From Bacteroidales bacterium (GTDB lineage Bacteria; Bacteroidota; Bacteroidia; Bacteroidales; WRLA01): DNA of 64,000 nt. Of the stretch, positions 9,134 through 63,101 are shown piece by piece. Where the stretch lies: positions 4,332,640 through 4,396,639 of the forward strand of contig OY781463.1 of assembly GCA_963676725.1 (NCBI GenBank), given 5' to 3'. A program made the position numbers and the translations under genes. Every line of letters starts with the position of its first letter. Position 1 is the first letter of the stretch. The notes under the pieces were generated by a model. The model ran no database searches and was not told where the DNA came from. It saw only the letters and a program-made list of their open reading frames with translations.

Positions 9134-12100
9134 TTATTTCTTCAATTCGTTGTCAATGCATGATTGCAGTATTCGAGCGAAATCATAATCGTTTGGTGGT
9201 GCAAAGATAGCAGAATGCTCCCCTGGTATATCAAAGATTTTCACGCCTTTTTGTGCATATTTATCCCATGAATATGTTTTAAAGTCTTCAATATAGAATG
9301 TTTTTCGCTTTGCTTTAAACAGGAATATTTTAATTGGGCAGGGACGCAACACATAATTATCTCCGGCCCTGTTATTTGCTTCATGCACACTTAGCACATA
9401 ATCCTGTAATTTTTCTTTATCACCATCAATAAAAGCTTTCTTGTATTTTCTGTTCGATTTAATATTAGCAATCATTCTATGGACAGATTTTATTTTCCAC
9501 CCAATTACCTGCTTCTTATCGGGATCGCGGATTAAGAGCCAAAATGCAAAAGCGGCCTGATTTACCCGAATTTTAAGTCTTCTGAGTTTTTTTCTCCATG
9601 GATTCAAATAATTATCTGAAGTATAGGCAACGGTATCGAACAAACCCGTAAAGGCAACTTTTTCATGATTCTTCAGTAATTGGCAACTCATTTCATAAGC
9701 AATAATACCTCCCAGCGAATAACCGGCCAATAAATATGGTCCTTCAGCTTGAACGGTTTTAATTTCACTGATATAATGAGCTGCAATTTCTTCCATCGTT
9801 TCCAGTGGCTTTGTTTTCCCATCCAAGCCTTTTGCTTGCAAACCATAAACGGGTTGTTCTGGATCAAGATGTGTTGATAATGATTTATACAACAGCAAGT
9901 TAAGCCCGGCGCCATGCACTACAAACAAAGGTGTTTTATTGCCTTTGGGTTTAATTGCAACCAAACTTCTCCAGGTCTGCTCTTCCTTACAACTCAAGTG
10001 TTTTGATAGTTTTTCAATACTCGAATCAGAGAACAAAACTGCCAATGGTAACCTCTGCCCGAAGGTTTCTTCAATTTTATTCATCATCTGAACTGCCATC
10101 AGGCTATGCCCACCAATGGTGAAGAAATCGTCCTCAATACTTAATTGGACATGTGGCAATAATGCCTGCCAAATATCCAATAATTTTCGTTGCAATTTTG
10201 TTTGTGGCAGCACAATTTCCCTGTCCGAAACAAATAGGTCTGCAGACTGCTCCGGTTTTGGAAGCCGTTTTCTGTCAATCTTCCCGTTGGGTGTCAATGG
10301 GATTTCATCAACTATAGAAAAGCTTGCCGGCAGCATATAATCAGGAAGCTGCTGCATAAGATCTTTTCGTAGTTTTTTGATGTCTGTTTTGGTGTTTTTC
10401 TCTTTTAAATATGCTGCAATATACTTGTTTCCCGGAACATCTTCCCTTACAATTACAACACATTGCTCCACAAAAGTCGACTTAAGAATACAGGCCTCAA
10501 TTTCATCCAGCTCTATTCTAAACCCCCTAATTTTAACCTGATTATCCATTCTGTTCAGGAATTCAAGGTTTCCATTAGCATGCATTTTAACCAAATCTCC
10601 GGTTTTATAAACCATTGCTCCATCCTCATGGGTAAAAGGATCCGGTAAAAATACAGAGCGACTAAGTTCTTTATTATTAAAATATCCCTTTCCAACCCCG
10701 AGTCCGCCAATAAGCAATTCTCCTGCTGTTTCTATTGGCTGAAGGCTCATGCATTCATTAACAACATAAACCTGAGTATTATCAATTGGGTATCCGATAG
10801 ATTCATTAGAACCTTCCTTTAGGAGATTGTTTACCTCAACAGTTGTTGACCAGATCGTAGTTTCAGTCGGGCCGTACATATTCCATAGGCTTTGGCATTT
10901 CCCACATAATTTATATGCAAGATCCGAGGACAAAGCTTCTCCTCCTGCCAAGGCTTTTAGGTCTTGCTTCCCTTCCCAACCACTCAATATCAGCATTTGC
11001 CAACTTACCGGAGTTGCCTGCATCATTGTTATATTCTCTTTATCAATGAGCATTGCTATTTGATCCGGATCCAGCATTTGATCTGCACCGGCAAGAACCA
11101 GTGTTGCTCCGGACATCAGCGGCAAATAGATTTCCAATCCGGCAATATCAAAACTAATAGTTGTTAGCCCAAGCATTTTATCCTGCTCCTGAATGCCGGG
11201 CTTTTTTTGCATTGAATACAAAAAATTAATCAGGTTTTTATGGGAGATAACAACACCTTTTGGATTTCCTGTAGATCCCGATGTATAAATAATATATGCT
11301 ATTGCTTTGGCATTTGGCTTTGGTAAAACAGTGCTTTTTTCTGCCTCAAGAAGCAGTTCATTAATATCAACATGTTTCGTGTTTTCTCCCAGCAATGTTG
11401 CCGCATCATCCTTATGGCAAATCAGAAAACCGGCATTCGAATCATTCAGAATATATCGAATTCGATCATTTGGATAAACAGGGTCAAGCGGAATATAAGC
11501 ACCTCCCGCCTTCATCACAGCAAGAAGGCTAAAAATTAAATCTTCATTTCGGTCAAGGAAAATTGCAGCAAGATCACCCGGTTTAAAGCCTTTATTTATA
11601 AGATTTCGGGCAATTAATGAGCTTCGGGCATCAAGCTCTGCATAAGAAATCCTCTGACCGTTTTGCGTAATAAGGGCAATCTTATCGGGCTGAGCCATTT
11701 TTGCCAGATCAAACGCATTTAAAAAATGAGCATTGTCGGCAAGAAAAGTATTGGTATTGTTGATATTATGAAATAACCAAGATTTCTCTTTGTCTGTTAG
11801 CAAGTTAAAGCTCCCCAAAGCTGTCCCCGGATTTTTTAGCACTTCCTGTATGAGTTGCACATAATGATCCGCAAAAGCCCTGATAAAACTATGATCAAAT
11901 AGATCTGTATTATAATTAAAATTCAGGCATAGTCCATTATTTTGCTCATATACAACGAGGCTTAAATCAAAAATACTCGACTTCACGGACCAATGTACAT
12001 AGGTGCATTCAGCACCCTCAAATTTGAAGGAATCGGAATGCGCATTTAGATAGTTAAAAATACATTGAAAAACAGGAGTGTAGCTAAGATCACGCCTGAG

Positions 12101-24238: not shown

Positions 24239-25660
24239 ATGGTTTTTAGCAGTGCGTTATTTTTATTGTATTTTCTGCCCATTTTTATTGTGGCTTACTT
24301 TTTTGTTGCCCAAAGGTTCAGAAATATCCTCACTCTCGCCTTCAGCATTTTCTTTTATGCCTGGGGGGCTCCCCGTTTTCTCTTTTTAGTAATTCTTTCA
24401 ACGGTGCTTACTTTTTATCTTGTACAGGCACTGCATAAAGAAAGCCGTAGAAAGCAACGTCGGTGGCTGCTTACATCTGCTGTTGGGCTTAATCTTGGTT
24501 TATTGCTCTATTTCAAATATGCCAATTTCTTCGTCGAAAACCTGAATGAATTGCTAAGCGGGCTTGGAATGACCAACCTGGAATGGACTGCTGTTGCTTT
24601 GCCTATTGGAATTTCATTTTTCACTTTTCAATCCCTGACCTATGCCGTGGATGTGTACAGAAAAGTGCATGACCCTCTGCGAAAGCTCACCGATTATATG
24701 CTCTATATCATGATGTTCCCACAAATGATAGCCGGGCCAATTGTTCGTTTTAACACCATTGCCGATCAAATTGAACATAGAAACACCACCGCTGAAGATC
24801 GTCTTTTGGGCTTTTACCGCTTTACCATTGGTCTTGCAAAAAAAGTACTAATCGCCAATGTAATGGGAGCGGTTGCCGATGATATTCTGGCCAGGGAATT
24901 TGTGCATATGAATTCCACAACAGCATGGATAGGTATTTTGGCATATACATTTCAGATCTACTTCGATTTTAGCGGATACTCGGATATGGCGATTGGGATT
25001 GGTCGTATGATCGGTTTTCGTTTCCCTGAAAACTTTAATAACCCCTATATTTCACAATCCATTACTGAATTCTGGCGTCGTTGGCATATGACTCTTGGCG
25101 CATGGATGAAAGATTATCTCTACATCCCGCTTGGCGGTAACCGAGTAAAATCAAAGACTCGGCTCTATTTCAATCTTGGCTTTGTTTTTCTTCTCTCCGG
25201 ATTATGGCATGGAGCATCATGGAATTTTGTGCTTTGGGGTGCATTTCATGGTGTTTTCCTGATCCTAGACCGTATATTCCTAATTCGAATACTGAATAAA
25301 TTAGGCAAATACCCATCCGTTTTGATTACTTTTTTCCTTGCAGTGATGGGCTGGGTGCTTTTCCGCATCGAAGATTTTAATGCCGCAATGACATTTTACG
25401 GACGCCTTTTTGCTTTTGATTTCTCAAGCTTATCTTTAAATGATTCAGGGCGCTTTTTCTTGATATTGCCTTTTGCACTCATTTTTTCCTGGATTACACT
25501 CAGTAAATACGGGCTCCGCTTGCAGGATAAAGTGTTCTACAGCTCCTATTCAATAAAAGGCAGCTTGATTATGTTGATTGTCGTCATCGTATTATTAGGT
25601 TTTTCATTGGCCTCGGTAACAAGTTCTGGATTTAATCCGTTTATCTATTTCAGGTTTTAA
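24239..25660 (+). CDS. MBOAT-family membrane-bound O-acyltransferase (AlgI/DltB-like)
   Basis: The N-terminus MVFSSALFLLYFLP, ISFFTFQSLTYAVDVYR, FWRRWHMTLGAWMKDYLYIPLGGNR and the WHGASWNFVLWG block with the conserved His are all present. Confidence 0.9.
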   Translation: MVFSSALFLLYFLPIFIVAYFFVAQRFRNILTLAFSIFFYAWGAPRFLFLVILSTVLTFYLVQALHKESRRKQRRWLLTSAVGLNLGLLLYFKYANFFVENLNELLSGLGMTNLEWTAVALPIGISFFTFQSLTYAVDVYRKVHDPLRKLTDYMLYIMMFPQMIAGPIVRFNTIADQIEHRNTTAEDRLLGFYRFTIGLAKKVLIANVMGAVADDILAREFVHMNSTTAWIGILAYTFQIYFDFSGYSDMAIGIGRMIGFRFPENFNNPYISQSITEFWRRWHMTLGAWMKDYLYIPLGGNRVKSKTRLYFNLGFVFLLSGLWHGASWNFVLWGAFHGVFLILDRIFLIRILNKLGKYPSVLITFFLAVMGWVLFRIEDFNAAMTFYGRLFAFDFSSLSLNDSGRFFLILPFALIFSWITLSKYGLRLQDKVFYSSYSIKGSLIMLIVVIVLLGFSLASVTSSGFNPFIYFRF

Positions 25661-25663
25661 CGC

Positions 25664-26971
25664 ATGAAAAAGGAACAACTACATAGCACCCTCTTTATCG
25701 CTTTGATAGCCGTTTTGCTTTTGCCTGCATTTCAGCAAATGTTCCATTTGTTCCCTGAACCGACTCTTGCTGGAGCTTCCATTAAAGCAGATTACAAACC
25801 ATTAAACACTAAATATTGGCTCGACGGGTCTTATCAGGAAAATACAGACAAATGGTTGAATGAAAATTTTGGCTTTAGGCCAGCCTTCGTTCGGCTTAAT
25901 AATCAACTGGAATACAGTTTACTGGGAAAGATAAATGCAAAAAATGTTTATGAAGGCAGCAATCATTTCTTATATCGTTTTTATGCTCCAGGTATGAAAT
26001 ACAATACAAATTTTCGCGGCAAAGAATGGCTCAGCGAGAAAACCGATAAGCTAAAATTTGTACAAGACACCCTCGAAAAATTAGGCAAACACATCATCAT
26101 TGCCATTGCTCCCGCGAAACATTATTATCACGCAGCCAATTTACCTCCGGAAAACAGTAGCCCAGACACTCTGCCCAATAATTATAAGCAAATTGTATCA
26201 TCGCTGATTGAGCAAAATGCAAATATGATTGATCTGAACGATTGGTTTCTCAAAGCACAGGACACTATAAAAATCCCGGTCTATGCTAAAGGCGGCATTC
26301 ACTGGACGCAACTAGCATCATTTGTTGCCATGGACTCAATAATGCATTATATGCAACATCTGAGTAATGAAAAATATCCTGAGATATCGTGGCAACCGCC
26401 TGTAATAAGAAAAAAGCCTTGGGCTCCGGATGTGGACATCTATAATGCATTAAACATTTATACACAATGGGATGAGTTTCCTTTGCAATACGGCGCCTTA
26501 ATCGAAGACTCTTCAGCTACACAGAAGCCAAAAGTTATTGTAATCGCTGACAGCTATTTTCATGCACCATCATGGAGTAGCATCCCTAAAAAATATTTTT
26601 CGGAAAATTCTGAATTCTGGTATTACAACAAAGAAGTATATAATAATGACAATCAGAAAATTGGAATGGTTGCCGACCTTGATCTTGGCACGCAAATTAA
26701 TGATCACAACTATTTTATTGTATTATCAACAGTGATGAACCTTGAAAATTTTGCCTGGAATTTTATCGATCAAATGTATGATTACTATACAGGCAAAAGA
26801 AAAAAACCAATAGAATCAGACAAACAAAAGGAAGAAATCCAAAAAATTATCAGGAAAATCAAAGCCGACAAAAACTGGTTAAATTCTGTTAATAATAAAG
26901 CAAAACGAAGGGGTATTCCCTTAGATTCCATGCTGATTTTAGACGCCCAATATATGCTAAACAACCGTTAA
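25664..26971 (+). CDS. AlgJ/AlgX-like (SGNH-type) periplasmic partner of the MBOAT acyltransferase
   Basis: It starts 4 nt after the MBOAT stop. There is an N-terminal signal anchor, a GGIHWT block resembling the D-x-HW catalytic block of AlgJ/AlgX, and a later VIVIADSYF block. The assignment rests on motifs and context only. Confidence 0.5.
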   Translation: MKKEQLHSTLFIALIAVLLLPAFQQMFHLFPEPTLAGASIKADYKPLNTKYWLDGSYQENTDKWLNENFGFRPAFVRLNNQLEYSLLGKINAKNVYEGSNHFLYRFYAPGMKYNTNFRGKEWLSEKTDKLKFVQDTLEKLGKHIIIAIAPAKHYYHAANLPPENSSPDTLPNNYKQIVSSLIEQNANMIDLNDWFLKAQDTIKIPVYAKGGIHWTQLASFVAMDSIMHYMQHLSNEKYPEISWQPPVIRKKPWAPDVDIYNALNIYTQWDEFPLQYGALIEDSSATQKPKVIVIADSYFHAPSWSSIPKKYFSENSEFWYYNKEVYNNDNQKIGMVADLDLGTQINDHNYFIVLSTVMNLENFAWNFIDQMYDYYTGKRKKPIESDKQKEEIQKIIRKIKADKNWLNSVNNKAKRRGIPLDSMLILDAQYMLNNR

Positions 26972-29292: not shown

Positions 29293-30975
29293 ATGGCAAA
29301 AGATTACCGTCAATATATCAGCAGGGAAATTTCTATAGGATCACTAAAGCTAGGCGGAAACCAACCCGTACGCCTCCAATCCATGACCTCTGCCAATACT
29401 ATGGACACCAATGCAATAATGGCGCAATGCAGGAAAATGCTTGCAGCAGGTTGTGCGCTTATCCGCATCACAGCACCTGGTGTAAAAGAAGCTGGGCATT
29501 TATCTGTGATAAAAAAGAACCTCATCGAATCCGGTTATGATGTACCCCTGATTGCAGATATTCACTACAGTCCAAAAGCTGCTGAAATTGCCGCCACTAT
29601 TGTAGAAAAAGTGCGCATCAACCCGGGAAATTATACAGATAAAAAACGAGGCAAAACCCATTGGACAGAGGAAGAATATCAAGACGATATTAAAAAAATT
29701 GAAAGCCGCCTGCTTCCTCTAATCGAAATCTGCAAAAAACATAATACAGCAATGCGCATTGGCGCAAACCATGGCTCACTGTCCGAACGAATCATGGCAA
29801 GATATGGTGATACAGCAGATGGTATGGTAGAATCTGCACTCGAATTTGTGCGTATCTGCCGAAAAAACAATTACCACCAATTGGTGCTTTCAATGAAATC
29901 GAGCAATACAGGCATTATGATTTATGCCAGCCGCTTATTGGTACAAAAAATGATGGAAGAAGGCATGGATTATCCATTGCACCTTGGTGTTACCGAAGCC
30001 GGTGAAGGAGCTGATGGAAGAATAAAATCTGCCCTGGGCATCGGTACTTTGCTGGCTGAAGGAATTGGCAATACAATTCGCGTTAGCCTGACCGAAGACC
30101 CTGAATTTGAACTGCCCGTAGCGAAAAAAATCGTTGACCAAAACAGAACCGATAACAATCAAATTTACAGCCTGTTTTTTAATCCCTTTGGCTTTGAACG
30201 CAGAAAAAGCAGACAAGTCTTAGTTATTGGAGGCGATCAGATTCCCCGGGTTTTCTCTACGAAAGCAAACACAAAACCCCAACCCGACTATGAATTAATT
30301 GAGCAGCAGCAAGATAAAATTACTTTCCGCTCCCACCAAAATGAAAACATAAAAGGTTTATACATCACAAAAACAGATATTATTCCGGACAAAGACGCAA
30401 CCCTTTTGATTGCGGCTTTTAATAATGTATCTCAATATTATCAGTTTTTTGAACATCTACATCAGCACAAAATTGATACAGCTGTTGTACTTGCACCAAT
30501 CATTCATTCAGCGGATGAAGAAAATTACCAATTAAAGCTTGCTTCCATTGCCGGAAATTTATTCAGTAATGGCTTTGGTGATGGCATTTGGCTGCACAAC
30601 GAATTCTTACATACTCCTTTTTTAACGCAAACGGCATTTGCTGTTTTACAGGCAGCGCGCCGGCGCTTCTCAAGAACAGAATACATCAGTTGCCCTTCCT
30701 GTGGGAGAACACAGTATAATATTCAGGACGCTGTTCAAAAAGTCAAGGCAGCAACATCTCATCTAAGCGGCATCACTATTGGTGTAATGGGTTGTATTGT
30801 AAATGGTCCCGGGGAAATGGCCGGAGCTGATTATGGCTATGTTGGCGCAGGAAATAAAACGATAGTGCTGTTTAAGGGCAAGGAAGCCGTTAGCGAAAAA
30901 ATCCCCGAACATGAAGCCGTTCAACGATTAGTAGAATTGATAAAAGCCAATGGCGATTGGAAAGAAGCCGAATAA
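29293..30975 (+). CDS. ispG: 4-hydroxy-3-methylbut-2-en-1-yl diphosphate synthase, long (insert-containing) form
   Basis: The blocks GSLKLGGNQPVRLQSMT, RINPGN and GANHGSL are present, along with the C-terminal Fe-S motif SCPSCGRT ... GCIVNGPGE. An insert of about 130 aa lies between the TIM-barrel and the Fe-S domain, as in Bacteroidetes, Chlamydia and plant-type enzymes. Confidence 0.9.
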   Translation: MAKDYRQYISREISIGSLKLGGNQPVRLQSMTSANTMDTNAIMAQCRKMLAAGCALIRITAPGVKEAGHLSVIKKNLIESGYDVPLIADIHYSPKAAEIAATIVEKVRINPGNYTDKKRGKTHWTEEEYQDDIKKIESRLLPLIEICKKHNTAMRIGANHGSLSERIMARYGDTADGMVESALEFVRICRKNNYHQLVLSMKSSNTGIMIYASRLLVQKMMEEGMDYPLHLGVTEAGEGADGRIKSALGIGTLLAEGIGNTIRVSLTEDPEFELPVAKKIVDQNRTDNNQIYSLFFNPFGFERRKSRQVLVIGGDQIPRVFSTKANTKPQPDYELIEQQQDKITFRSHQNENIKGLYITKTDIIPDKDATLLIAAFNNVSQYYQFFEHLHQHKIDTAVVLAPIIHSADEENYQLKLASIAGNLFSNGFGDGIWLHNEFLHTPFLTQTAFAVLQAARRRFSRTEYISCPSCGRTQYNIQDAVQKVKAATSHLSGITIGVMGCIVNGPGEMAGADYGYVGAGNKTIVLFKGKEAVSEKIPEHEAVQRLVELIKANGDWKEAE

Positions 30976-31068: not shown

Positions 31069-32130
31069 ATGGGTTTCTTTAGTAATCTTCTCCATATACC
31101 CCAATTGGGTGCAAGTGCATCCCAAAAAGAAATAGCCGAATTTAAAAAACTCGACTATTTTAAACACAATCGTTTTGTAAATCCGGTGGAAACAATGATG
31201 ACCCCACCACCTGCAAAAATTATGTGGGACTTTGCTTTTCGAAAAGAAAACCGCTATCCATCAGCCCCAATACCAAGTATTGCTCCCAACCATGAAGAAT
31301 ACAATCAGGCAGTGTCAAATGAATTTCCCGTTTCCTCCTGGCTTGGTCATTCTTCCATATTTCTGAATATGGCCGGTTTGAATATTCTTATCGACCCTGT
31401 TTTTTCAAAAAGGGCGTCCCTCTTTTCGTTTTTGGGGCCATCAGCATTTCCTTATTCATCGCCTATTAGCCTAAGCAATTTTCCAAATATCGATTTGGCA
31501 CTAATCTCTCACGACCATTACGACCATCTGGATTATCACACAATAAAGCAATTAAAATCAACGCATTTTATTGTCCCATTAGGGGTTGGCGCCCATCTGC
31601 GGACATGGGGCATTCAAAAGGACAAAATTATTGAACTGGGCCGATGGCAGGAAACTGATTTTAAAAGCCTCAAAATCACACTAACGCCTACCAGACATTT
31701 TAGCGGACGCGGCCTCAAAGACCGCTTCAAAAGCCTTTGGGGAGGATTTGCTTTAAAAGGGGATGATAAAAATGTATTCTTTAGTGGTGATTCAGGATAT
31801 TTTCAAGGCTTTAAAGAGATTGGAAAGCGCTTGGGGCCTTTTGATCTTGCTTTTATTGAAAACGGCCAATACAACAAATATTGGTCAAATATCCATATGA
31901 TGCCGGAAGAAACAGCCCTAGTTGGGGAAGATATTGGCGCAAGCTATGTTGTTCCTGTTCATTGGGGGAAATTTTCATTAAGCCTACATTCCTGGTATGA
32001 GCCTGCAGAGCGTTTTTTAAAAGCCTCAAATTCATATAGTTATAAAACACTTTACCCTCTTCCGGGAGCTATTATCTCGCCGGCTGACAGAAACAATTAT
32101 TGGTGGCGAAATAATTTATTCAGCCGATGA
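31069..32130 (+). CDS. MBL-fold metallo-hydrolase (NAPE-PLD-like)
   Basis: The metal-binding motif ISHDHYDHLD is present. Later His and Asp residues (TPTRHFSGR, FSGDSGY, VPVHWG) follow the order typical of beta-lactamase-fold hydrolases. Confidence 0.7.
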   Translation: MGFFSNLLHIPQLGASASQKEIAEFKKLDYFKHNRFVNPVETMMTPPPAKIMWDFAFRKENRYPSAPIPSIAPNHEEYNQAVSNEFPVSSWLGHSSIFLNMAGLNILIDPVFSKRASLFSFLGPSAFPYSSPISLSNFPNIDLALISHDHYDHLDYHTIKQLKSTHFIVPLGVGAHLRTWGIQKDKIIELGRWQETDFKSLKITLTPTRHFSGRGLKDRFKSLWGGFALKGDDKNVFFSGDSGYFQGFKEIGKRLGPFDLAFIENGQYNKYWSNIHMMPEETALVGEDIGASYVVPVHWGKFSLSLHSWYEPAERFLKASNSYSYKTLYPLPGAIISPADRNNYWWRNNLFSR

Positions 32131-32250: not shown

Positions 32251-34194
32251 ATGAAAAAACAAGGATCAATGTTCATGGCTACATTGCTGATGATGGCATC
32301 TTTAACGATGTTGTTTTCATGCAATTGCCCAACTCAAGACAAAGAAATGGTTATTGAAAAAGCAAAACAAATCCCTTTGGAGGATTTCTTCAAAAATCCG
32401 GAGAAAACCAGTTATCAAATTTCGCCCGACGGCAAATATTACAGCTATAAAGCGCCTTACGAAAACAGGCTAAATGTATTTGTTGTGCCTGTTGATGGCG
32501 GAGAAGCTGTTCGTTTAACATCAGAAACCGACCGTGCTATTTCCGGTTACTTCTGGGCCAATAACAATCGCATCCTCTATCTAAAAGACAATGGCGGCGA
32601 TGAAAATTTCAAGCTTTATGGCGTAAATATTGACGGATCAAACCAAGTTTGTTTTACTGATTTTAAAGACGTAAGAACACAAATTATTGATGATCTGGAA
32701 GATATTCCTGATGAAGTAATTATTGGGCTCAACAAGCGAAACCCAATGGTTTTTGATCCATACCGCCTGAATATCGTAACCGGTGAAATGACTATGCTCT
32801 ATGAAAACCCAGGAAATATCCAGGGATGGATGACTGACCATGATGGCAAACTCCGTATAGCCTATGTTCTTGATGGTGTAAATACAAGTATGCTCTATCG
32901 TGAAACTGAAAAGGACGAATTCAAAACGATCTTAACAACAAGTTTTAAAGATCAGCTTTCTCCTATGTTCTTTACCTTCGATAATAAAAACCTTTATGCC
33001 ACTTCCAATCTGGAACGCGACAAATCTGCTGCCGTAATTTTTGATCTGGAAACAGCAAAAGTGAGTGAAGTGCTGTATGAAAACCCAAATTATGACGTGA
33101 GTGGCATCAGCTATTCCCGCAAGCGCAAGGTAATTACTGCTGCATATTATACAGGATACAAGCAAGAATACAAATTCTTTGATAAGACTTCAGAAGAAGC
33201 TTTTACGGATCTTATGACAAAACTGCCCGGTTATGAGATTGCTGTAACATCGCGCAACAAAGAAGAGGATAAGTACATCGTTCGTACATACAGCGACCGT
33301 TCTTTAGGTGCTTATTACTTATATGATGTTGCAACAAAATCTTTGGACAAAATTACTGATGTAAGCCCTTGGATTGATGAAAATGAAATGGCAAATGTAT
33401 TCCCAATCAAATATGAAGCCCGTGATGGTCTGAAAATAGAGGGATACCTTACACTTCCCAAAGGATATACTATGGAAAACGCCAAGAACCTTCCGGTTGT
33501 TGTAAATCCTCACGGAGGACCTTGGGCACGTGATTCATGGGGTTTTAATCCTGAAATCCAATTCCTTGCAAACAGAGGCTATGCTATTCTACAAATGAAT
33601 TTCAGAGGCTCTACCGGCTTTGGAAAAGACTTCTGGGAAAAAAGCTTTAAGCAATGGGGCCTTACAATGCAGGACGACATCACTGATGGTGTAAATTGGC
33701 TGGTTGAAAAAGGTATTGCAGATGAAAGCAGAATAGCTATCTATGGCGCAAGCTATGGCGGTTATGCTACATTACAAGGTATCGTGGTTACGCCTGAGCT
33801 TTATGCCGCTGCTATTGATTATGTTGGTGTTTCCAATCTATTTTCCTTTATGAAAACCATTCCTCCATATTGGAAGCCCATGCTTGATATGATGTATGAA
33901 ATGGTTGGAAACCCTGTTACTGATAGCGTTCAGTTGGCTGCAACTTCTCCAGCCCTCAATGCTGATAAAATTATCACACCTCTCTTTATTGCACAAGGCG
34001 CAAACGACCCACGTGTAAACAAAGATGAATCTGATCAAATGGTTGCTGCTTTAAAAGCCAGAAATGTTGCCGTGGAATATATGGTGAAAGACAACGAAGG
34101 CCATGGTTTCCATAACAAAGAAAACCAATTTGAATTTTATGGCGCTATGGAAAAATTCCTTGCAAAACAAATGCAAATAGAAAGCCCAGAATAA
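32251..34194 (+). CDS. S9-family serine peptidase (prolyl oligopeptidase / dipeptidyl aminopeptidase-like) lipoprotein
   Basis: A lipoprotein signal is present (LTMLFSCNC). The N-terminal half is a beta-propeller-like region. The C-terminal catalytic domain has the GASYGGY nucleophile elbow, GANDPRV and EGHGF. Confidence 0.85.
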   Translation: MKKQGSMFMATLLMMASLTMLFSCNCPTQDKEMVIEKAKQIPLEDFFKNPEKTSYQISPDGKYYSYKAPYENRLNVFVVPVDGGEAVRLTSETDRAISGYFWANNNRILYLKDNGGDENFKLYGVNIDGSNQVCFTDFKDVRTQIIDDLEDIPDEVIIGLNKRNPMVFDPYRLNIVTGEMTMLYENPGNIQGWMTDHDGKLRIAYVLDGVNTSMLYRETEKDEFKTILTTSFKDQLSPMFFTFDNKNLYATSNLERDKSAAVIFDLETAKVSEVLYENPNYDVSGISYSRKRKVITAAYYTGYKQEYKFFDKTSEEAFTDLMTKLPGYEIAVTSRNKEEDKYIVRTYSDRSLGAYYLYDVATKSLDKITDVSPWIDENEMANVFPIKYEARDGLKIEGYLTLPKGYTMENAKNLPVVVNPHGGPWARDSWGFNPEIQFLANRGYAILQMNFRGSTGFGKDFWEKSFKQWGLTMQDDITDGVNWLVEKGIADESRIAIYGASYGGYATLQGIVVTPELYAAAIDYVGVSNLFSFMKTIPPYWKPMLDMMYEMVGNPVTDSVQLAATSPALNADKIITPLFIAQGANDPRVNKDESDQMVAALKARNVAVEYMVKDNEGHGFHNKENQFEFYGAMEKFLAKQMQIESPE

Positions 34195-34212
34195 AGGCTT
34201 GCCAGATTTAAT

Positions 34213-34247
34213 AAAAAAGCCGGGCCTTTTTTGGTTCCGGCTTTTTT
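34213..34247 (+). terminator. Rho-independent terminator of the S9 peptidase gene
   Basis: AAAAAAGCCGG ... CCGGCTTTTTT forms a hairpin (GCCGG 34219..34223 pairs with CCGGC 34237..34241) followed by a T6 run. Confidence 0.7.
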
Positions 34248-34571
34248 GCGTCAATAATCATAAAGATACCGACCATATGCAAACTGACCCGTCGTCATTT
34301 TATAGATAAGCCGTAGGCCTTTTGGAAGCAGTTCACTTTTTTTAATTGCAAAATTTGACATCTAAAAACCGCCAGAACTTTATATGTGATTCCATTAATT
34401 TTTCCAATAATATATATAACCATTTTTATACTTCTGAATATCTACATATTATGATATAGTGACTTTTGGTTTACTCTGGAAAATTTGCAAATTGTGTGAA
34501 GTGTTTTCTTTCTTTTAGCGTTTAAGGTGCTATTGCTCGAAAACCAATACCTTTACACGCAAAAAAGCATT

Positions 34572-37241
34572 ATGGGTTTATTCAGACATCAGATAGTAAC
34601 AATTTTGTTGGGCCTTTTATGTGTTTCCGCTACGGCGCAAAACATAACTGAGGTGCTAACCTATAGGGCGCTTGGTCCCTACCGCGCCGGTTCGTGGATT
34701 TCGGCTATTGCCGTTCCCGAAGGCAATCAGCCCCAATCTGACTACACCTTCTTCATCGGTGCTCGTCATGGTGGTGTCTGGAAAACCGAAAACCGGGGCA
34801 TCACTTTTTTTCCGGTCTTCGATTCAACGGAAGTAATGAGCATCGGCGATATTGCCATTGCAAAAACGAATCCTGAAATCGTTTGGGTGGGCACAGGCGA
34901 AGCTTCTAATGCCAGAAGCTCACATGCAGGAAAAGGTGTATATAAATCAGACGACGGAGGGAAATCCTGGGTCTGCAAAGGCCTTGAGGACTCCCAGCAT
35001 ATTTCAAAAGTGATCATCCACCCCAAAAACCCACAAATCGTTTGGGTCGCAGCAATGGGCCATTTGTTTTCTCCCAACGATATACGCGGAATTTTTAAAA
35101 CCACTGACGGAGGTGAAAGCTGGGAAAAAGTCTTGTATATCGATGAAAACACCGGTGTAATCGATATGATCATCAACCCCGAAAATCCCAATATCCTGTA
35201 TGCGTCGACTTATGAAAAATACCGGCTGCCATGGCATTATGAAGCCGGAGGCAACAATAGCGACATCTTCAAATCGATCGATGGGGGAGAGAATTGGACA
35301 AGGCTAGCTAACGGTTTACCAGACGGTAAGCTCGGCAGGATAGGTCTAGCACTCTGCTACAGCAAACCGGAGATCGTCTATGCTGTAATTGAAAACCTAA
35401 ACCCCAAACCTGGTGTCACTATCAACGAATCTGTTGGAATGAATCATCTCCGCGACAGCTATTTTGACCAGATGATTGGCGGCGAACTATACCGTTCATC
35501 CGACAATGGCCAGAGTTGGGAAAAACGCAACGATACCAGTTACAACCTGTCGGCAAAGGCAGCATATTCTTTCAACAAAATCATGGTGGCATCTGACAAT
35601 CCTGACATCGTATATGTTTCAAGCGACTTGATGATGTATTCAGAGGATGGGGGCAAAACCTGGCCCGATTATTTATGGCCACCCACGGTGCTCAGTGCTA
35701 AAATCTTCGGGGACCACCGCTGTATGTGGATGGATCCAAAGGACGGACGCCACCTCATGTTTGGCAGCGATGGCGGTGCTTATGAGTCTTTCGACCGTGG
35801 CAAGACTTTTATCCATCATGAAAACATTCCTCTTGGCGGTATTTATAGCGTTGAAACCGATAATGCTTTTCCTTACAATATTTACTTTGGGTTACAGGAT
35901 CATGAAGTCTGGAAAGGGCCATCAAACAGCTGGTCAGGCGAAATAGGCCCTGAAGATTGGGTAATCACCGGGATGTGGGATGGTATGTACACCAAAGTTG
36001 ACCCACAGGACTGTCGCTGGCTTTATACTACTACGCAGTTTGGATCACACCTGCGTGTGGATCAATTTCTGGGCGAACGAGTAAGTATCGAACCCAAAGC
36101 CCCGGAAGGCACTGCTGACTATCGTTTTTGCTGGACCACCCCCTTGGAGCTTTCGCCACACAATCCGAGGGTGATTTATACCGGCGGGCAGATGCTGCTG
36201 CGTTCACCTGATAGGGGCAATAGCTGGGAGGAAATCAGTCCGGATCTTACCAGCAATGATGCTGAAAAAATTGCTGGAAAAGGCCATATGATGTATTGCA
36301 GCATCACCACCATTTCCGAATCCACCTTGCAGGAAGGTCTGATTTGGGTTGGAACCGACGACGGGCATGTATGGGCTACTCTCGATAATGGTGCTACATG
36401 GCAGGAATTTACCGCTGATATTGAAAATTGCGGAGGTAAGGCTGAAGAATGGGTTTCTAGAGTGCTGGCTTCACCTCACCAGGCAGGGAAAGCTTTTGTT
36501 TGCAAATCAGGCTATCGCAGTGATGATTTCAGGGCGATGGTTTTTAAAACCACAGACTTTGGCCAGAACTGGACAAACATCAGCGCAGGATTACCTGAAG
36601 CCCCGGTGAACGTGATTGCAGAAGATCCTCAGCGCGAAGGATTATTATACCTAGGTAACGATCAAGGTGTCTTTATCAGTTTTGATGACGGAGACAGCTG
36701 GCAAGCATTTAAAAACAATATGCCTGCAGCTCCGGTAAAAGACCTAAAAATCCATCCGCAGGCAAATGATCTGGTGGTTGGAACATACGGTCGTGGTGGG
36801 TTTATTACTGACACCTGGCCTTTGCAGCATTTCTCGCCCGACATCACCGAAAAGCCTATGCATCTATTCCCGATAGAAAGCAAGCCACAAAGAAACTATT
36901 CGCAACGCGCTCTGTGGGGAAACTATGAACATACTGGAGATAACTATCTCAGGTCTCCCAATGAACCCAACGGTCTGGCCATTTATTACTTCCTGAAAGA
37001 AACACCTGCAAGCAAAGCCTGGCTGCAAATTTTCGACGCGGAGGGTCATTCCCTCGACACCTTATCGATTGATCAGCAAAAAGGCTTTCACCTTGTTTAT
37101 TGGGATACACAGGATATAGAACCCGGAAAATACCTGATCAGGCTGATCACGGGAAAGCAACAAATGGAACAAAGTGCTGAAATTCTGGTTTCACCGATTT
37201 GGCCTGTGGGACATGGACCATGGTACAAAAAAGCAGAATAA
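34572..37241 (+). CDS. Secreted BNR/Asp-box repeat protein (sortilin/VPS10-like beta-propeller)
   Basis: Ten S/T-x-D-x-G-x-(S/T)-(W/F) Asp-boxes are present: SDDGGKSW, TTDGGESW, SIDGGENW, SSDNGQSW, SEDGGKTW, SFDRGKTF, SPDRGNSW, TLDNGATW, TTDFGQNW and SFDDGDSW. The ORF track starts at GTG 34527. I prefer the ATG at 34572, which gives a clean signal peptide (MGLFRHQIVTILLGLLCVSATAQ). Confidence 0.75.
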   Translation: MGLFRHQIVTILLGLLCVSATAQNITEVLTYRALGPYRAGSWISAIAVPEGNQPQSDYTFFIGARHGGVWKTENRGITFFPVFDSTEVMSIGDIAIAKTNPEIVWVGTGEASNARSSHAGKGVYKSDDGGKSWVCKGLEDSQHISKVIIHPKNPQIVWVAAMGHLFSPNDIRGIFKTTDGGESWEKVLYIDENTGVIDMIINPENPNILYASTYEKYRLPWHYEAGGNNSDIFKSIDGGENWTRLANGLPDGKLGRIGLALCYSKPEIVYAVIENLNPKPGVTINESVGMNHLRDSYFDQMIGGELYRSSDNGQSWEKRNDTSYNLSAKAAYSFNKIMVASDNPDIVYVSSDLMMYSEDGGKTWPDYLWPPTVLSAKIFGDHRCMWMDPKDGRHLMFGSDGGAYESFDRGKTFIHHENIPLGGIYSVETDNAFPYNIYFGLQDHEVWKGPSNSWSGEIGPEDWVITGMWDGMYTKVDPQDCRWLYTTTQFGSHLRVDQFLGERVSIEPKAPEGTADYRFCWTTPLELSPHNPRVIYTGGQMLLRSPDRGNSWEEISPDLTSNDAEKIAGKGHMMYCSITTISESTLQEGLIWVGTDDGHVWATLDNGATWQEFTADIENCGGKAEEWVSRVLASPHQAGKAFVCKSGYRSDDFRAMVFKTTDFGQNWTNISAGLPEAPVNVIAEDPQREGLLYLGNDQGVFISFDDGDSWQAFKNNMPAAPVKDLKIHPQANDLVVGTYGRGGFITDTWPLQHFSPDITEKPMHLFPIESKPQRNYSQRALWGNYEHTGDNYLRSPNEPNGLAIYYFLKETPASKAWLQIFDAEGHSLDTLSIDQQKGFHLVYWDTQDIEPGKYLIRLITGKQQMEQSAEILVSPIWPVGHGPWYKKAE

Positions 37242-37344
37242 ACTAATGCTTTTCATTTGTGTCCGTTTAAAGATATTTCGCCCCCGGCGAGACGTTTCTG
37301 CCTGATTTATGCGTTCGTTGTTCCGAATTCCTCATTTGTTGTTG

Positions 37345-37449
37345 ATGAATCAATGGATTAGGTTGAATAAAGAAAATCCATTTGCATTTTATGGCTCAAT
37401 GAAAAAAAAATTTCTCTCTAAACAAATGCAAATAAGACATTCTGAACAT
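37345..37449 (+). pseudogene. Decayed copy of the last ~30 codons of the S9 peptidase gene
   Basis: The region translates as LNKENPFAFYGSMKKKFLSKQMQIRHSE, against HNKENQFEFYGAMEKFLAKQMQIESPE* at 34111..34194. It carries a 3-nt insertion and has lost the stop codon. There is no upstream peptidase body, only an accidental ORF (37309..37557). Confidence 0.7.
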
Positions 37450-37472
37450 CTAAAATTTCAAATAAAAGCACA

Positions 37473-37506
37473 AAAAAGCCGGAACTTTATTCGTTTCGGC
37501 TTTTTT
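37473..37506. terminator. Bidirectional terminator hairpin, homologous to the 34213..34247 terminator
   Basis: AAAAAAGCCG ... CGGCTTTTTT has A/T runs on both sides. It lies 20 nt downstream of the minus-strand gene ending at 37526 and at the end of the peptidase 3' relic. Confidence 0.6.
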
Positions 37507-37525
37507 AATGTCAAACAGAATCTGT

Positions 37526-37918
37526 TTATAATTTCCCCGTTTCCCAAGCGATTTTAAGCTCGTCAAGAAAAGCATGGATATTGGGGATGCTGTAATAAAC
37601 GCTATCTTCATTCAAAACAATAACTGGGTAAGAAAAACCACCAGCTTTATTATTGCGGGCTTTATTCACCCATTGCTGCATTTCAGAACGGTTTTCGGCT
37701 ACGCCGATATTTTTTCCAAGATATGGGATTTCATTCTCGTCCAAAAACTCTTTTGCAACATGGCATTTCCCACAGCCATCATTATGAAATAAAATAATTT
37801 TCTGAATACTGGTGCTATCCATTTGCACAGTTTCGCTTCCTGAATTTGCGGGGCTTTGCGCTTTAAGCCCTGTATATGAGAACAGGCCAAAAATTAGTAG
37901 GGCGATAAAATATTTCAT
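37526..37918 (-). CDS. Secreted glutaredoxin/thioredoxin-fold protein (CxxC)
   Basis: The redox motif is HNDGCGKCHVAKEFL. The ORF track starts at 37945, but those first 9 codons overlap the ferritin terminator hairpin. The ATG at 37918 gives a signal peptide (MKYFIALLIFGLFSYTGLKAQ). Confidence 0.65.
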   Translation of the reverse strand: MKYFIALLIFGLFSYTGLKAQSPANSGSETVQMDSTSIQKIILFHNDGCGKCHVAKEFLDENEIPYLGKNIGVAENRSEMQQWVNKARNNKAGGFSYPVIVLNEDSVYYSIPNIHAFLDELKIAWETGKL

Positions 37919-37930
37919 TTTAAATAATTT

Positions 37931-37967
37931 TAAAAAAAGCTGCATGGAATAATCCTCCAGGCAGCTT
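37931..37967 (-). terminator. Terminator after the ferritin gene
   Basis: On the minus strand, GAAGCTGC...GCAGCTT forms a 7-bp stem (37937..37943 pairs with 37961..37967) followed by T7. Confidence 0.5.
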
Positions 37968-37991: not shown

Positions 37992-38504
37992 TTAAGCAGT
38001 AGTCTCAGGGCGGGCAGCTGCCATTGTATTTAATTCTTTATCCATATGGAAATATCCTCCTTTTGCATCGCCGATAAGACGGATTTTATCGAGGATATCA
38101 GACATAGTGCTTTCCTCTTCAATTTGCTCATTAATAAACCACTGAAGGAAAATACCTGTTGTATAGTCTTTTTCATCCAAGGTAATGCTGTACAACTCAT
38201 TAATAGATGCTGTGATATAGCGCTCGTGCTCCAGCACTTGTTCAAAAACATCTAAAAGTGATTTGTATTCAAAAGCCGGCTTTTCTAATTCCGCCAATGT
38301 TGAATATCCGCCCCTATCGTTCAAATAATGCACAAACTTCATCATATGGTCGCGTTCTTCAACACTTTGTTCATACAAAAAAGCGGCAGCGCCGGGAAAA
38401 CCATTTGTTTCACACCAAGATGCCATAGCAAGATAAAGGCGTGAAGAATGTTCTTCTTTCTTTATTTGCTCATTAATTGCTTCTTCTAATTTTTTAGAAA
38501 TCAT
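37992..38504 (-). CDS. Non-heme bacterial ferritin
   Basis: The ferroxidase-centre pattern is present (EEHSSRLYLAMASW ... EERDHMMKF ... EHERYITASINELY ... FLQWFINEQIEEE), and the 170-aa size fits. Confidence 0.85.
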   Translation of the reverse strand: MISKKLEEAINEQIKKEEHSSRLYLAMASWCETNGFPGAAAFLYEQSVEERDHMMKFVHYLNDRGGYSTLAELEKPAFEYKSLLDVFEQVLEHERYITASINELYSITLDEKDYTTGIFLQWFINEQIEEESTMSDILDKIRLIGDAKGGYFHMDKELNTMAAARPETTA

Positions 38505-61373: not shown

Positions 61374-61637
61374 TTACCATATCATTGTCCAATAAACTAT
61401 AATATTTTCTTTTTCTGATGTTGCAAAACCTTTGGAATAGCCATGTTTCCACTCTTTTAAGCTTTCCGGACGATATTCGTTGCAATCATTTTTCCAAAAA
61501 TTGCCCGCCCTGGCATCCACAACATGGACTTGCAGGTCTGAGGGGACATAATATGTATCAACAACATATTGGTCTTTATCAACGGTAACCTCCATTCTAT
61601 TGCATACGCTATCTGCGAATATATAATTCCTTTCAAA
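61374..61637. repeat. 264-bp direct repeat, copy 1
   Basis: Manual alignment to 63102..63365 shows no indels and 6 mismatches. Identity begins exactly at the stop codon. Confidence 0.9.
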
Positions 61638-61703
61638 ACTCTTGGTGAGACCATATCTAATAAAGTACATTAATAAATCTCTTTTTGTGCTAATTTGTGC
61701 CAA
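61374..61703 (-). pseudogene. Truncated paralog (C-terminal 83 aa) of the lipoprotein gene 63102..63800
   Basis: The last 264 nt are a near-identical copy of 63102..63365. The 5' 26 codons are unrelated. The ORF opens with TTG and lacks the signal peptide and lipobox of the full-length copy. Confidence 0.55.
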
Positions 61704-61751
61704 ACACCAACTTAAACTGCTGTTTTTCAGGATTTCAGATAGTTTTGACTA

Positions 61752-62555
61752 TTATTCCAAATTAGAGCATGACACAAAAAAACCTTTAAAAAAATAAATA
61801 TCTTCTTTAAGATATTCGTCTGGTATCATTAAACGGCCAACTATATTACTATTCCCCGGTCTTTGTTCTGTATAGTAAAAAGAATAGTAATCTGGCAAAG
61901 TGTCGAAGGACACATATTGCAAAGTGTCAAAACAATTAAATGAATTGTCAAACTCACCAATGAGTATCTTGGCCCCTTCAACAGCTTCTGGAAAGGTAAT
62001 ATCAAGCTTCACCTGTGTTTCTTCATTAACAAAAATCGTATCATCCATTACCACATCTACATACATGCCTTGGATTATTTCGTCGGAAGAGGTGCTATCA
62101 CGTAAATAAAAGTATAATTCCCCAGCCCAAAAAACCTTACCATTTAGCTTCCCAAAAACTCTTTTTCTGCCAATAGTTGTGTCTTCTTTAACCATATTAT
62201 CGTAATAAAGTGCTTGAAAATTATTAATATAAAGGGAACTCCTAATCCAACCGCCATTTTCATTATAAACCATATTTACACCATGAACCAAACCTTTATT
62301 AAAGTTCGTTCGAATACTTGCATCTCCATTTGGAAAGTAGGCGACAACTTCACCTTCTGGCACCCCATTTTTTAATGGGGTTTTCGAACAAAGAATCCCA
62401 TTAAGAAATCTATACCGTTCACTATTTAATGTGTCGCTACCATTTTCGCAGATATACTTGTAAATAAGAGTATCAGATTTAGTTACGACAACCTCATTGT
62501 CATTACATGATATAAAAAACAATGAACAAAATAATAAAATTGAAAAAGATTTCAT
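61752..62555 (-). CDS. Lipoprotein with MORN-variant / YwqK-like repeats
   Basis: A lipobox is present (LFFISCNDN). G-x-x-x-G-x-x-x-x-Y-x-x-N-G type repeats (NGVPEGEVVAYFPNGD, KGLVHGVNMVYNENGG) occur as in YwqK-family antitoxin/immunity-like proteins. Confidence 0.45.
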   Translation of the reverse strand: MKSFSILLFCSLFFISCNDNEVVVTKSDTLIYKYICENGSDTLNSERYRFLNGILCSKTPLKNGVPEGEVVAYFPNGDASIRTNFNKGLVHGVNMVYNENGGWIRSSLYINNFQALYYDNMVKEDTTIGRKRVFGKLNGKVFWAGELYFYLRDSTSSDEIIQGMYVDVVMDDTIFVNEETQVKLDITFPEAVEGAKILIGEFDNSFNCFDTLQYVSFDTLPDYYSFYYTEQRPGNSNIVGRLMIPDEYLKEDIYFFKGFFVSCSNLE

Positions 62556-62626
62556 GTCGCTAAACTATTTTATGGATTATAATTATATCATTATTGTCAG
62601 ACAAAACCAAAATATAGTCAAATTGA

Positions 62627-63061
62627 TTAGCTGTTTTTATTTTGCTTTAATCTGCTTTTATAAAATTTAACAGGAATCGCATATTCTTTTATCTTTATAG
62701 GGTTGCCTCTTTGTTTTGCGGGCTTATCAAATTCAATTAGCCGAGAAATCCTCAGGGCTTCTCTGTCAATGTCATCCCGACTATTATTAAGAATATAATG
62801 TAAAGAGGTTTTCCCATGAGTATCCACCGTACAGCTGATAAATATTGTAATATCATTTTTAATTTCTTCAATAGAATCATAACGAATTTGGTCTTGAATA
62901 AATTTATGCATTTTTTCTGTTCCTCCTCTAAAATAGGGCATATCCTCCACTACGCCATATCCAACTTCCTCTAAAACAGCAGAATCCGATGTACTGGATT
63001 GTGCTAAAACCTGACTTGTTGTGAAAAGGAAGACAAGTACTATAATTATGTTTTTTTTCAT
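62627..63061 (-). CDS. Secreted TonB-C-terminal-domain-like protein
   Basis: The ATG at 63061 gives a signal peptide (MKKNIIIVLVFLFTTSQVLAQS). VEDMPYFRGGTEKMHKFIQDQIRY resembles the start of the TonB_C domains common in small Bacteroidetes proteins. Confidence 0.45.
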   Translation of the reverse strand: MKKNIIIVLVFLFTTSQVLAQSSTSDSAVLEEVGYGVVEDMPYFRGGTEKMHKFIQDQIRYDSIEEIKNDITIFISCTVDTHGKTSLHYILNNSRDDIDREALRISRLIEFDKPAKQRGNPIKIKEYAIPVKFYKSRLKQNKNS

Positions 63062-63101
63062 GATGTTAATAATATTTTCAAACAATATGCCAAACTTCGC
63101 T

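What the first reader, a model, noticed from the sequence alone, without database searches (positions are those of the whole stretch)
37340..37513. Decayed second copy of the S9 peptidase 3' end and its terminator, 3.2 kb downstream of the intact one
Seen:
- Region 37345..37506 aligns to 34100..34247 at both levels. At the protein level, LNKENPFAFYGSMKKKFLSKQMQIRHSE aligns to HNKENQFEFYGAMEKFLAKQMQIESPE*, with 17 of 27 positions identical by my count.
- At the DNA level, the match includes ...TTTTATGGC..ATG..AAACAAATGCAAATA... and the terminator AAAAAAGCCGG...CGGCTTTTTT.
- The copy has a 3-nt insertion and a lost stop codon, and there is nothing peptidase-like upstream of it.
- The ORF-track entry 37309..37557 is therefore an accident of this relic.

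Inference: the relic marks the original end of the peptidase gene, or the end of a lost paralog. The DNA between the two copies was inserted by homology-driven recombination, or by duplication followed by replacement.
Basis: seen in the sequence. Interest (0 to 1): 0.6.

Follow-up and report, generated by a model that had tools for sequence, protein, structure and literature searches.

The report
Leftover peptidase gene tail and terminator
A 141-base decayed copy of the last 27 codons and terminator of a peptidase gene sits 3.1 kb downstream of the intact gene in an uncultured Bacteroidales genome; it is most likely an ordinary recombination scar left when one gene was inserted, and its hairpin probably still ends transcription of both flanking genes.

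Summary
Window 34114-34247 (last 27 codons, stop, spacer and terminator of the S9 peptidase gene 32251-34194) recurs at 37366-37506. Identity is 70.6% over 143 columns (E 3e-11; score 79 against 18-20 for shuffles). The coding and non-coding halves are each significant on their own.

Nothing peptidase-like lies upstream of the copy. Its coding part looks neutrally decayed, but its hairpin with A and T tracts is intact on both strands. It lies between the convergent BNR/sortilin-like gene (34572-37241) and a glutaredoxin-like gene (37526-37945).

The copy derives from the resident orthologue lineage, not a foreign peptidase. It shares the lineage-specific spacer and terminator, and it is closest to the allele of a conspecific strain (L086).

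Synteny with the nearest relatives (83% peptidase identity) ends exactly at the peptidase terminator. The BNR gene has a different context in all six relatives examined.

The best reading is a 3'-end displacement scar from one-sided homologous recombination that inserted the BNR segment, with the old terminator still in use. This is not proven, because no empty site exists in the databases. It is an ordinary phenomenon of low interest.

A younger scar of the same layout (98% identity) lies at 61374-63800.

The parts
32251..34194 (+). Intact S9-family peptidase gene (647 aa)
   Evidence: Pfam Peptidase_S9 E 3e-42, covering 1-211 of 213 profile positions at residues 430-642. 80 orthologue loci at 66-83% identity.
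34114..34247 (+). Proximal (resident) repeat copy: last 27 codons, stop, spacer and terminator of the peptidase gene
   Evidence: blastn 70.6% over 143 columns to 37366-37506, E 3e-11. Conserved, terminator included, in the orthologues L001/L002/L100.
34213..34247 (+). Resident intrinsic terminator (A-tract, GC-rich hairpin, T-tract)
   Evidence: Folds at -20.5 kcal/mol, z = -4.0. Also found by the terminator scan.
34029..34586 (+). Tract that differs between conspecific strains (window haplotype A vs L086 haplotype B). It spans the peptidase's last 55 codons, the terminator, the spacer and the first BNR codons.
   Evidence: L086 differs almost only here. dS is 0.86 in the last 55 codons against 0.011 in the rest of the gene.
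34249..34485 (+). 237-bp spacer block present in haplotype A and absent from L086
   Evidence: Strain alignment. No other copy in the window or the loci. No Rfam family.
34572..37241 (+). BNR/Asp-box, sortilin-Vps10-like beta-propeller gene (889 aa): the cargo between the two repeat copies
   Evidence: Pfam Sortilin-Vps10 E 4.5e-29 and BNR. GC 47.4% and GC3 0.479, the highest of 30 long ORFs. Next-best homologues are about 70% identical, each in a different context.
37242..37365 (+). 124-bp segment of unknown origin between the BNR stop and the relic. It contains the presumed illegitimate junction at its right edge.
   Evidence: No similarity to the peptidase or to any fetched locus.
37366..37449 (+). 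Relic, coding-derived part (NKENPFAFYGSMKKKFLSKQMQIRHSE; the former stop is now CAT)
   Evidence: tblastn 66.7% over 27 aa. Profile match at positions 178-198. Differences from the L086 allele fall 5/3/5 over codon positions; one 3-nt insertion; stop lost.
37450..37506 (.). Relic, non-coding part: spacer plus an intact hairpin with A-tract (37472-37477) and T-tract (37501-37506). Probable bidirectional terminator for the BNR (+) and glutaredoxin-like (-) genes.
   Evidence: Folds at -18.1 kcal/mol (+ strand, z = -5.5) and -15.7 kcal/mol (- strand, z = -3.7). Its stem differs from the resident stems only by changes that keep pairing. It lies 20 nt beyond the glutaredoxin-like gene's stop codon.
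37309..37557 (+). Accidental 82-aa ORF running through the relic
   Evidence: No family hit. 0 homologues among 1.84 billion representatives. Not called in any assembly. Overlaps the 3' end of the glutaredoxin-like gene on the opposite strand.
37526..37945 (-). Glutaredoxin-like gene convergent on the relic; first gene of the conserved glutaredoxin-like / ferritin / ATP synthase block
   Evidence: Pfam Glutaredoxin E 1.3e-5. The block is also present in L085.

Best explanation
The relic is the displaced former 3' end of the S9 peptidase gene: its last 27 codons, stop, spacer and intrinsic terminator.

Proposed history (inferred): DNA from a related lineage that carried 'peptidase 3' end - terminator - BNR gene' recombined with the chromosome through homology in the peptidase gene. 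The other end joined non-homologously just upstream of peptidase codon 622. This could have been homology-facilitated illegitimate recombination of a linear fragment, or equivalently a single crossover of a circular fragment carrying that homology.

The result is an intact peptidase gene with its own terminator, then the 3.1-kb BNR segment, then a 5'-truncated direct repeat of the gene's end.

Shown: the coding part of the distal copy has since drifted as if neutral.

Inferred: the hairpin with flanking A and T tracts has been kept because it now terminates the BNR gene on one strand and the glutaredoxin-like gene on the other.
For: - The repeat is real and has two components, coding and non-coding.
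- It is 5'-truncated, with no peptidase homology further upstream. The proximal gene is intact.
- It belongs to the resident orthologue lineage. It shares the spacer and terminator with L086 and L001/L002/L100. It is closest to the L086 allele: p-distance 0.198 against 0.305 to the window's own allele, and closer in 100% of bootstraps. dS is 0.56 against 1.44.
- Decay looks neutral: differences fall 5/3/5 over codon positions, there is an in-frame 3-nt insertion, and the stop is lost.
- The relic is much younger than the split from L001/L002. Its distance is about 0.2 per site, against a whole-gene dS of 1.8. Those relatives lack the BNR gene downstream.
- Synteny (up171-HAMP-GcpE-...-peptidase) ends exactly at the peptidase terminator.
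- The BNR gene has no conserved neighbourhood in six relatives. It is the GC/GC3 outlier of the window.
- Strain L086 shows a replacement tract of dS 0.86 across this very junction. So recombination with diverged DNA does occur here.
- The relic hairpin is intact on both strands. No comparably strong + strand terminator was found between the BNR stop and the relic.
- A second, 98%-identical scar of the same layout lies at 61374-63800.
- The mechanism and this kind of scar are described in PMC3240628 and PMC5361080.
Against: - No empty site was found, and no donor arrangement was found outside this species.
- High GC is partly a property of the BNR family: homologues run 3.5-8 points above their flanks. 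So foreign origin is not established.
- The three sequences (relic, haplotype A, haplotype B) form an unresolved trichotomy: site patterns are 3 vs 4 vs 0. Haplotype A's donor already had the peptidase-BNR junction. So the order of events cannot be fixed. Gene conversion between the two copies could have distorted the distances.
- Terminator function was not measured.
Confidence: 0.6

Rival explanations
1. Remnant of a lost second copy. The peptidase gene was duplicated, a full copy once lay downstream of the BNR gene, and a deletion later removed all but its last 81 nt and terminator.
For: - The sequence alone cannot exclude it.
- One BNR homologue (L095) is followed directly by an S9-family gene, and another (L096) has one 3.5 kb upstream.
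Against: - Those neighbouring S9 genes belong to other subfamilies (26-27% identity) and have unrelated C-termini and downstream DNA.
- No other peptidase-like trace exists in the window.
- None of the 80 orthologue loci has a close second copy within +/-10 kb. Only L016 has a distant 26% paralogue.
- It needs two events: a duplication across the BNR gene and then a near-complete deletion.
Confidence: 0.17
2. Decayed attL/attR of a site-specific integrative element that targeted the peptidase's 3' end and carried a replacement 3' end. Its integrase and most other genes have since been lost.
For: - Direct repeats made of a gene's 3' end flanking an insert, with the gene kept intact, are the classic layout of integrase-mediated insertion into gene ends (established knowledge).
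- A second scar of the same layout lies in the window.
Against: - The 3.1-kb insert encodes only the BNR protein. It has no integrase, excisionase or other mobile-element gene.
- No phage match. Plasmid matches are only 32-35% identical homologues on large replicons.
- The longest exact word shared by the two copies is 15 nt.
Confidence: 0.1
3. In-situ duplication without foreign DNA. A local replication or repair error inserted the BNR gene from elsewhere in the same genome and created a long (about 140 bp) target duplication.
For: The relic is closest to a conspecific allele. The BNR gene's high GC is partly intrinsic to its family.
Against: - Target duplications of about 140 bp are not typical of known bacterial insertion processes (established knowledge).
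- The process leaves no other signature that could be tested here.
- It does not explain why the repeat ends exactly where synteny with relatives ends.
Confidence: 0.1
4. Chance similarity, or a real small gene (ORF 37309-37557).
For: None beyond the existence of the ORF.
Against: - 0 of 1000 shuffles reach the observed score for either half of the repeat.
- 0 homologues among 1.84 billion representatives.
- No family hit.
Confidence: 0.02

Closest known systems
Homology-facilitated illegitimate recombination (one homologous anchor, one illegitimate join), described in Acinetobacter, Streptococcus pneumoniae, Pseudomonas stutzeri and E. coli conjugation (PMC3240628; primary references listed in PMC5361080)
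   Same: It yields an intact anchor gene, then foreign cargo, then the recipient's sequence resuming at a non-homologous junction. This matches the sharp left edge of the relic at 37366 and a repeat that ends where shared synteny ends.
   Different: The donor, the junction microhomology and the event itself are not observable here. The organism's competence is unknown. A Campbell-type single crossover of a circular fragment would give the same product.
3'-end / C-terminal displacement scars in Rhs, CDI and T6SS effector-immunity loci (PMC5361080; Jackson et al. 2009, PMC2935791, as cited there)
   Same: A new gene end plus cargo arrives, and the old 3' end is pushed downstream and persists as an orphan fragment.
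   Different: In those loci the displaced ends are variable toxin domains with immunity genes under diversifying selection. Here the old and new ends are homologous, the gene is a housekeeping-type peptidase, the cargo is one beta-propeller gene, and there is no toxin/immunity logic.
Bidirectional intrinsic (Rho-independent) terminators between convergent genes
   Same: A GC-rich hairpin flanked by an A-tract and a T-tract, placed between two convergent genes and folding on both strands.
   Different: Its origin can be traced to another gene's terminator, carried along with a fragment of that gene. Function was not measured.
Integrase-mediated insertion into the 3' ends of genes (attL/attR repeats that rebuild the target gene)
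   Same: Direct repeats of a gene's 3' end flank an insert, and the target gene remains intact.
   Different: No integrase or other element gene lies in the insert. There is no identical core longer than 15 nt.

Membership tests
Gene-fragment relic (pseudogene fragment) of the resident S9 peptidase lineage | Significant nucleotide and protein similarity to the parent gene's end | tested here: met
   E 3e-11; 0 of 1000 shuffles; 18/27 aa; profile positions 178-198.
Gene-fragment relic (pseudogene fragment) of the resident S9 peptidase lineage | Similarity continues into lineage-specific non-coding DNA (spacer and terminator), showing common descent rather than protein-level convergence | tested here: met
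   The post-stop part alone is reached by 0 of 1000 shuffles. It is shared with L086 and L001/L002/L100.
Gene-fragment relic (pseudogene fragment) of the resident S9 peptidase lineage | Loss of coding constraint | tested here: met
   Stop lost; 3-nt insertion; differences 5/3/5 over codon positions; all catalytic regions missing. Only 26 codons, so statistical power is low.
Scar of homology-anchored insertion (HFIR or Campbell-type) | Intact proximal gene, insert, then a 5'-truncated direct repeat of the gene's end with an abrupt non-homologous left junction | tested here: met
Scar of homology-anchored insertion (HFIR or Campbell-type) | Empty site (peptidase directly followed by the glutaredoxin-like gene) in a relative | tested here: inconclusive
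   No relative has both genes adjacent. The nearest peptidase orthologues (83%) have other genes downstream. The only glutaredoxin-like relative (59%) has neither the peptidase nor the BNR gene. The metagenome scan failed.
Scar of homology-anchored insertion (HFIR or Campbell-type) | Insert of foreign origin (composition, lack of synteny) | tested here: inconclusive
   The BNR gene is the GC/GC3 outlier, and its context differs in 6 of 6 relatives. But its homologues are also GC-rich relative to their flanks.
Scar of homology-anchored insertion (HFIR or Campbell-type) | Microhomology at the illegitimate junction with the donor sequence | not testable with these tools
   The donor is unknown.
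Bidirectional intrinsic terminator | Stable GC-rich hairpin followed by a T-tract on each strand, just downstream of both convergent genes | tested here: met
   -18.1 and -15.7 kcal/mol, z = -5.5 and -3.7. It lies 20 nt beyond the glutaredoxin-like stop and 231 nt beyond the BNR stop.
Bidirectional intrinsic terminator | Transcripts actually end there | not testable with these tools
   Needs Term-seq or RNA-seq.
Site-specific integrative element (att repeats) | Integrase/recombinase gene within the repeat-bounded segment | tested here: not met
   The only gene is the BNR gene. No recombinase domain was found.
Decayed tandem paralogue | A full second close copy at this position in relatives, or further fragments of it in the window | tested here: not met
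   No further fragments. No close second copy in 80 loci. The S9 genes adjacent to BNR in L095 and L096 are unrelated subfamilies.
Protein-coding small gene (ORF 37309-37557) | Homologues or a family match | tested here: not met
   0 hits among 1.84 billion representatives. No Pfam or NCBIfam hit.
Known structured RNA (Rfam) | A match reaching the gathering score | tested here: not met
   Only sub-threshold, terminator-driven matches (26-29 bits against cut-offs of 55-77).

The most novel reading that the evidence does not exclude
The two scars in this window (this one at 70-80% identity, and the one at 61374-63800 at 98% identity) could reflect a recurrent, directed way of loading cargo genes behind resident genes in this Bacteroidales lineage. 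Such a system would use the 3' end of the resident gene as the attachment sequence and would act in trans, leaving no recombinase in the insert. That would make them more than two independent accidents of general recombination.
Probability: 0.06. Interest if true: 0.6.

Novelty: new member of a known kind. Interest (0 to 1): 0.22.

Why it matters
The main value is for annotation and for reconstructing this locus's history.
- ORF 37309-37557 should not be called as a gene.
- The hairpin at 37472-37506 is probably a working bidirectional terminator that came from another gene's end.
- The BNR gene is marked as a later arrival at the edge of a conserved synteny block.

With the L086 haplotype and the second scar, the window gives a small, concrete example of how homology-anchored recombination moves single genes in uncultured Bacteroidales. 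It does not bear on any open question.

Tried and rejected
- Upstream extension of the relic. MAFFT suggested a gapped extension, but the profile search and the shuffle test (p = 0.36) show it is chance.
- Inversion hypothesis. L001/L002/L100 have ALGX/MBOAT genes downstream of the peptidase, while the window has such genes upstream. These are only paralogue-level matches (29% and 57%), and the up171-HAMP adjacency shows a simple insertion in the window instead. Rejected.
- S9 genes next to BNR homologues (L095, L096) as evidence for a lost paralogue. They belong to unrelated subfamilies.
- GC content as proof of horizontal transfer. This is weakened by the same bias in BNR homologues.
- Dating the relic against the A/B haplotype split. 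The site patterns do not resolve it.
- Search for an empty site or intermediate relatives. Nothing lies between 83% and 100% for the peptidase, 71% and 99% for the BNR gene, or 59% and 100% for the glutaredoxin-like gene.
- The metagenome-contig scan failed with a tool error and still consumed the cap.
- Rfam found nothing. Phage and plasmid searches found no mobile-element link.
- The exact-protein look-up for the second scar's gene found no record.

Full report
**Observation**

The window carries, on the + strand, the genes GcpE (29293-30975), a metallo-beta-lactamase-fold gene (31069-32130), an S9-family peptidase (32251-34194) and a BNR/sortilin-like beta-propeller gene. The BNR gene's called start is 34572 and it ends at 37241. 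Converging on these from the - strand are a glutaredoxin-like gene (37526-37945), ferritin and the ATP synthase operon.

A local alignment of 34050-34270 against 37300-37530 scores 79, against 18.3 +/- 2.4 for shuffles. blastn places the match at 34114-34247 vs 37366-37506, with 70.6% identity over 143 columns and E 3e-11. tblastn matches peptidase residues 622-647 at 18/27.

With dinucleotide-preserving shuffles, the coding-derived half and the post-stop half are each reached by 0 of 1000 shuffles.

Nothing else peptidase-like exists in the window. A profile built from 88 orthologue C-termini matches only its positions 178-198 of 199 in the six-frame translation of 37000-37560. The left flank is at chance, p = 0.36.

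**What the copy derives from**

80 orthologue loci were retrieved, with the best (L001/L002) at 83% protein identity. The resident 3' end, including its spacer and terminator, is recognisably conserved in L001/L002 and L100. The relic shares that non-coding part.

The relic therefore descends from this orthologue lineage, not from a foreign or distant S9 peptidase. S9 genes that happen to lie near BNR homologues in L095 and L096 belong to other subfamilies, with unrelated C-termini and downstream DNA.

**A second haplotype**

One conspecific contig (L086) is about 99.9% identical to the window except in a tract at about 34029-34586. That tract covers the peptidase's last 55 codons, the terminator, the spacer (L086 lacks 34249-34485) and the first BNR codons. 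dS is 0.86 in the tract against 0.011 in the rest of the gene.

Two conclusions follow. Diverged DNA has been exchanged by recombination at exactly this junction. And the source lineage already had the peptidase-BNR adjacency.

p-distances over 131 shared columns:

| Pair | p-distance |
|---|---|
| Relic vs L086 allele (haplotype B) | 0.198 |
| Relic vs window allele (haplotype A) | 0.305 |
| Relic vs L002 | 0.275 |
| Haplotype A vs haplotype B | 0.198 |

The relic is closer to B than to A in 100% of bootstraps. B has the fewest private changes (2, against 8 for A and 13 for the relic). The branching order of A, B and the relic is unresolved: site patterns are 3 vs 4 vs 0.

**State of the relic**

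Against the L086 allele, substitutions fall 5/3/5 over the three codon positions. This is consistent with neutral drift, although only 26 codons are available.

The product of the 82-aa ORF that runs through the relic has no family hit. It has no homologue among 1.84 billion representative proteins. No assembly calls it as a gene.

The hairpin, by contrast, is intact. It folds at -18.1 kcal/mol on the + strand and -15.7 kcal/mol on the - strand, each clearly better than shuffles. An A-tract lies on one side and a T-tract on the other. Its stem differs from the resident variants (A -20.5, B -13.5, L002 -17.9 kcal/mol) only by changes that keep pairing. It lies 20 nt beyond the glutaredoxin-like gene's stop and is the first strong terminator after the BNR stop. 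Rfam finds no known RNA family.

**Context in relatives**

Synteny between the window and L001/L002 (up171, HAMP/cyclase at 77%, GcpE at 63%, peptidase at 83%) ends exactly at the peptidase terminator. Downstream of it those relatives carry unrelated genes.

The glutaredoxin-like gene has a single non-self relative (59%). There the ATP synthase / ferritin / glutaredoxin-like block abuts an aminotransferase and has its own, different terminator.

The BNR gene has no homologue between 71% and 99% identity. It sits in a different neighbourhood in all six relatives inspected. It is the GC and GC3 outlier of the window: 47.4% GC, and GC3 of 0.479 against 0.364 +/- 0.041. Its homologues are also 3.5-8 GC points above their flanks, so this is weak evidence for foreign origin.

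No phage match was found, and plasmids hold only distant homologues. No empty site is available in any database searched. The metagenome scan failed.

**Timing**

The relic's distance of about 0.2 per site is small compared with the whole-gene dS of 1.8 to L001/L002. If the relic drifts neutrally, the event is therefore much younger than that split. This agrees with those relatives lacking the BNR gene downstream of the peptidase. The BNR gene and the relic are present in all sampled conspecific contigs.

**Mechanism**

The layout is an intact gene, a 3.1-kb insert, and then a 5'-truncated direct repeat that ends where shared synteny ends. This is what one-sided homologous recombination produces. 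The process could be homology-facilitated illegitimate recombination of a linear fragment (PMC3240628) or a single crossover of a circular fragment. Either would leave a displaced 3' end like those described for Rhs and T6SS loci (PMC5361080).

I rate this at about 0.6. The rivals are decay of a second gene copy (0.17), a degraded integrase-type element (0.10; no recombinase is present), an in-situ long target duplication (0.10), and chance or a real small gene (0.02).

The steps that are shown:
- the repeat itself and its boundaries;
- its descent from the resident lineage;
- neutral-looking decay of the coding part;
- an intact hairpin;
- the end of synteny at the terminator;
- exchange of diverged DNA at the junction.

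The steps that are inferred:
- the insertion event itself and its donor;
- the present terminator function.

**Verdict**

This is a real but ordinary genomic scar: a new member of a known kind, of low interest.

In passing, a younger scar of the same design was found at 61374-63800. It consists of a full 232-aa gene, two cargo ORFs, and a 98%-identical copy of the gene's last 87 codons that ends exactly at the stop codon. This suggests the process recurs in this genome.

Noticed in passing
window 61374-63800 (- strand): A second, younger scar of the same architecture. A full 232-aa lipoprotein-like gene (63102-63800) is followed by two unannotatable ORFs (62627-63085, 152 aa; 61752-62555, 267 aa). 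After them comes a 264-nt copy, 98% identical, of the gene's last ~87 codons (61374-61637, inside ORF 61374-61703). Homology starts near codon 146 and stops exactly after the TAA. No Pfam hits; the exact-protein look-up found no record.
   Followed up: partly
window 34029-34586 (compare L086 13344-13600): Within-species haplotype polymorphism across the peptidase-BNR junction. dS is 0.86 in the peptidase's last 55 codons against 0.011 in the rest of the gene. The spacer is unalignable, and a 237-bp block (34249-34485) is present in the window and absent from L086. This looks like an imported recombination tract.
   Followed up: yes
window ~30000-30900 and ~38000-38500 (compare L087): Strain L087 shows dense clusters of differences in the 3' half of GcpE (about 105 differences) and in ferritin (24 differences), against a background of about 0.1-0.5%. 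These are probably further recombination imports in this species.
   Followed up: no
window 24239-26971: An MBOAT-ALGX gene pair lies between the 171-aa gene and the HAMP/cyclase gene in the window. L001/L002 lack it at that position; there the 171-aa gene directly precedes HAMP. This is another single-block insertion within the same synteny block. L001/L002 carry paralogous MBOAT/ALGX pairs downstream of the peptidase instead.
   Followed up: partly
L085 ~10490-10760: Downstream of the glutaredoxin-like gene in the 59% relative, a unit of roughly 190 nt (GATTCAGAATGTTCGAGGTCGAGGCATTC...) appears twice in tandem. It is possibly a small repeat element. Seen by eye only.
   Followed up: no
window 34572-37241: The BNR/sortilin-like gene has the highest GC (47.4%) and GC3 (0.479) of 30 long ORFs in the window. 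Its homologues in six other genomes are also 3.5-8 GC points above their flanks, an unexplained family-wide compositional bias.
   Followed up: partly
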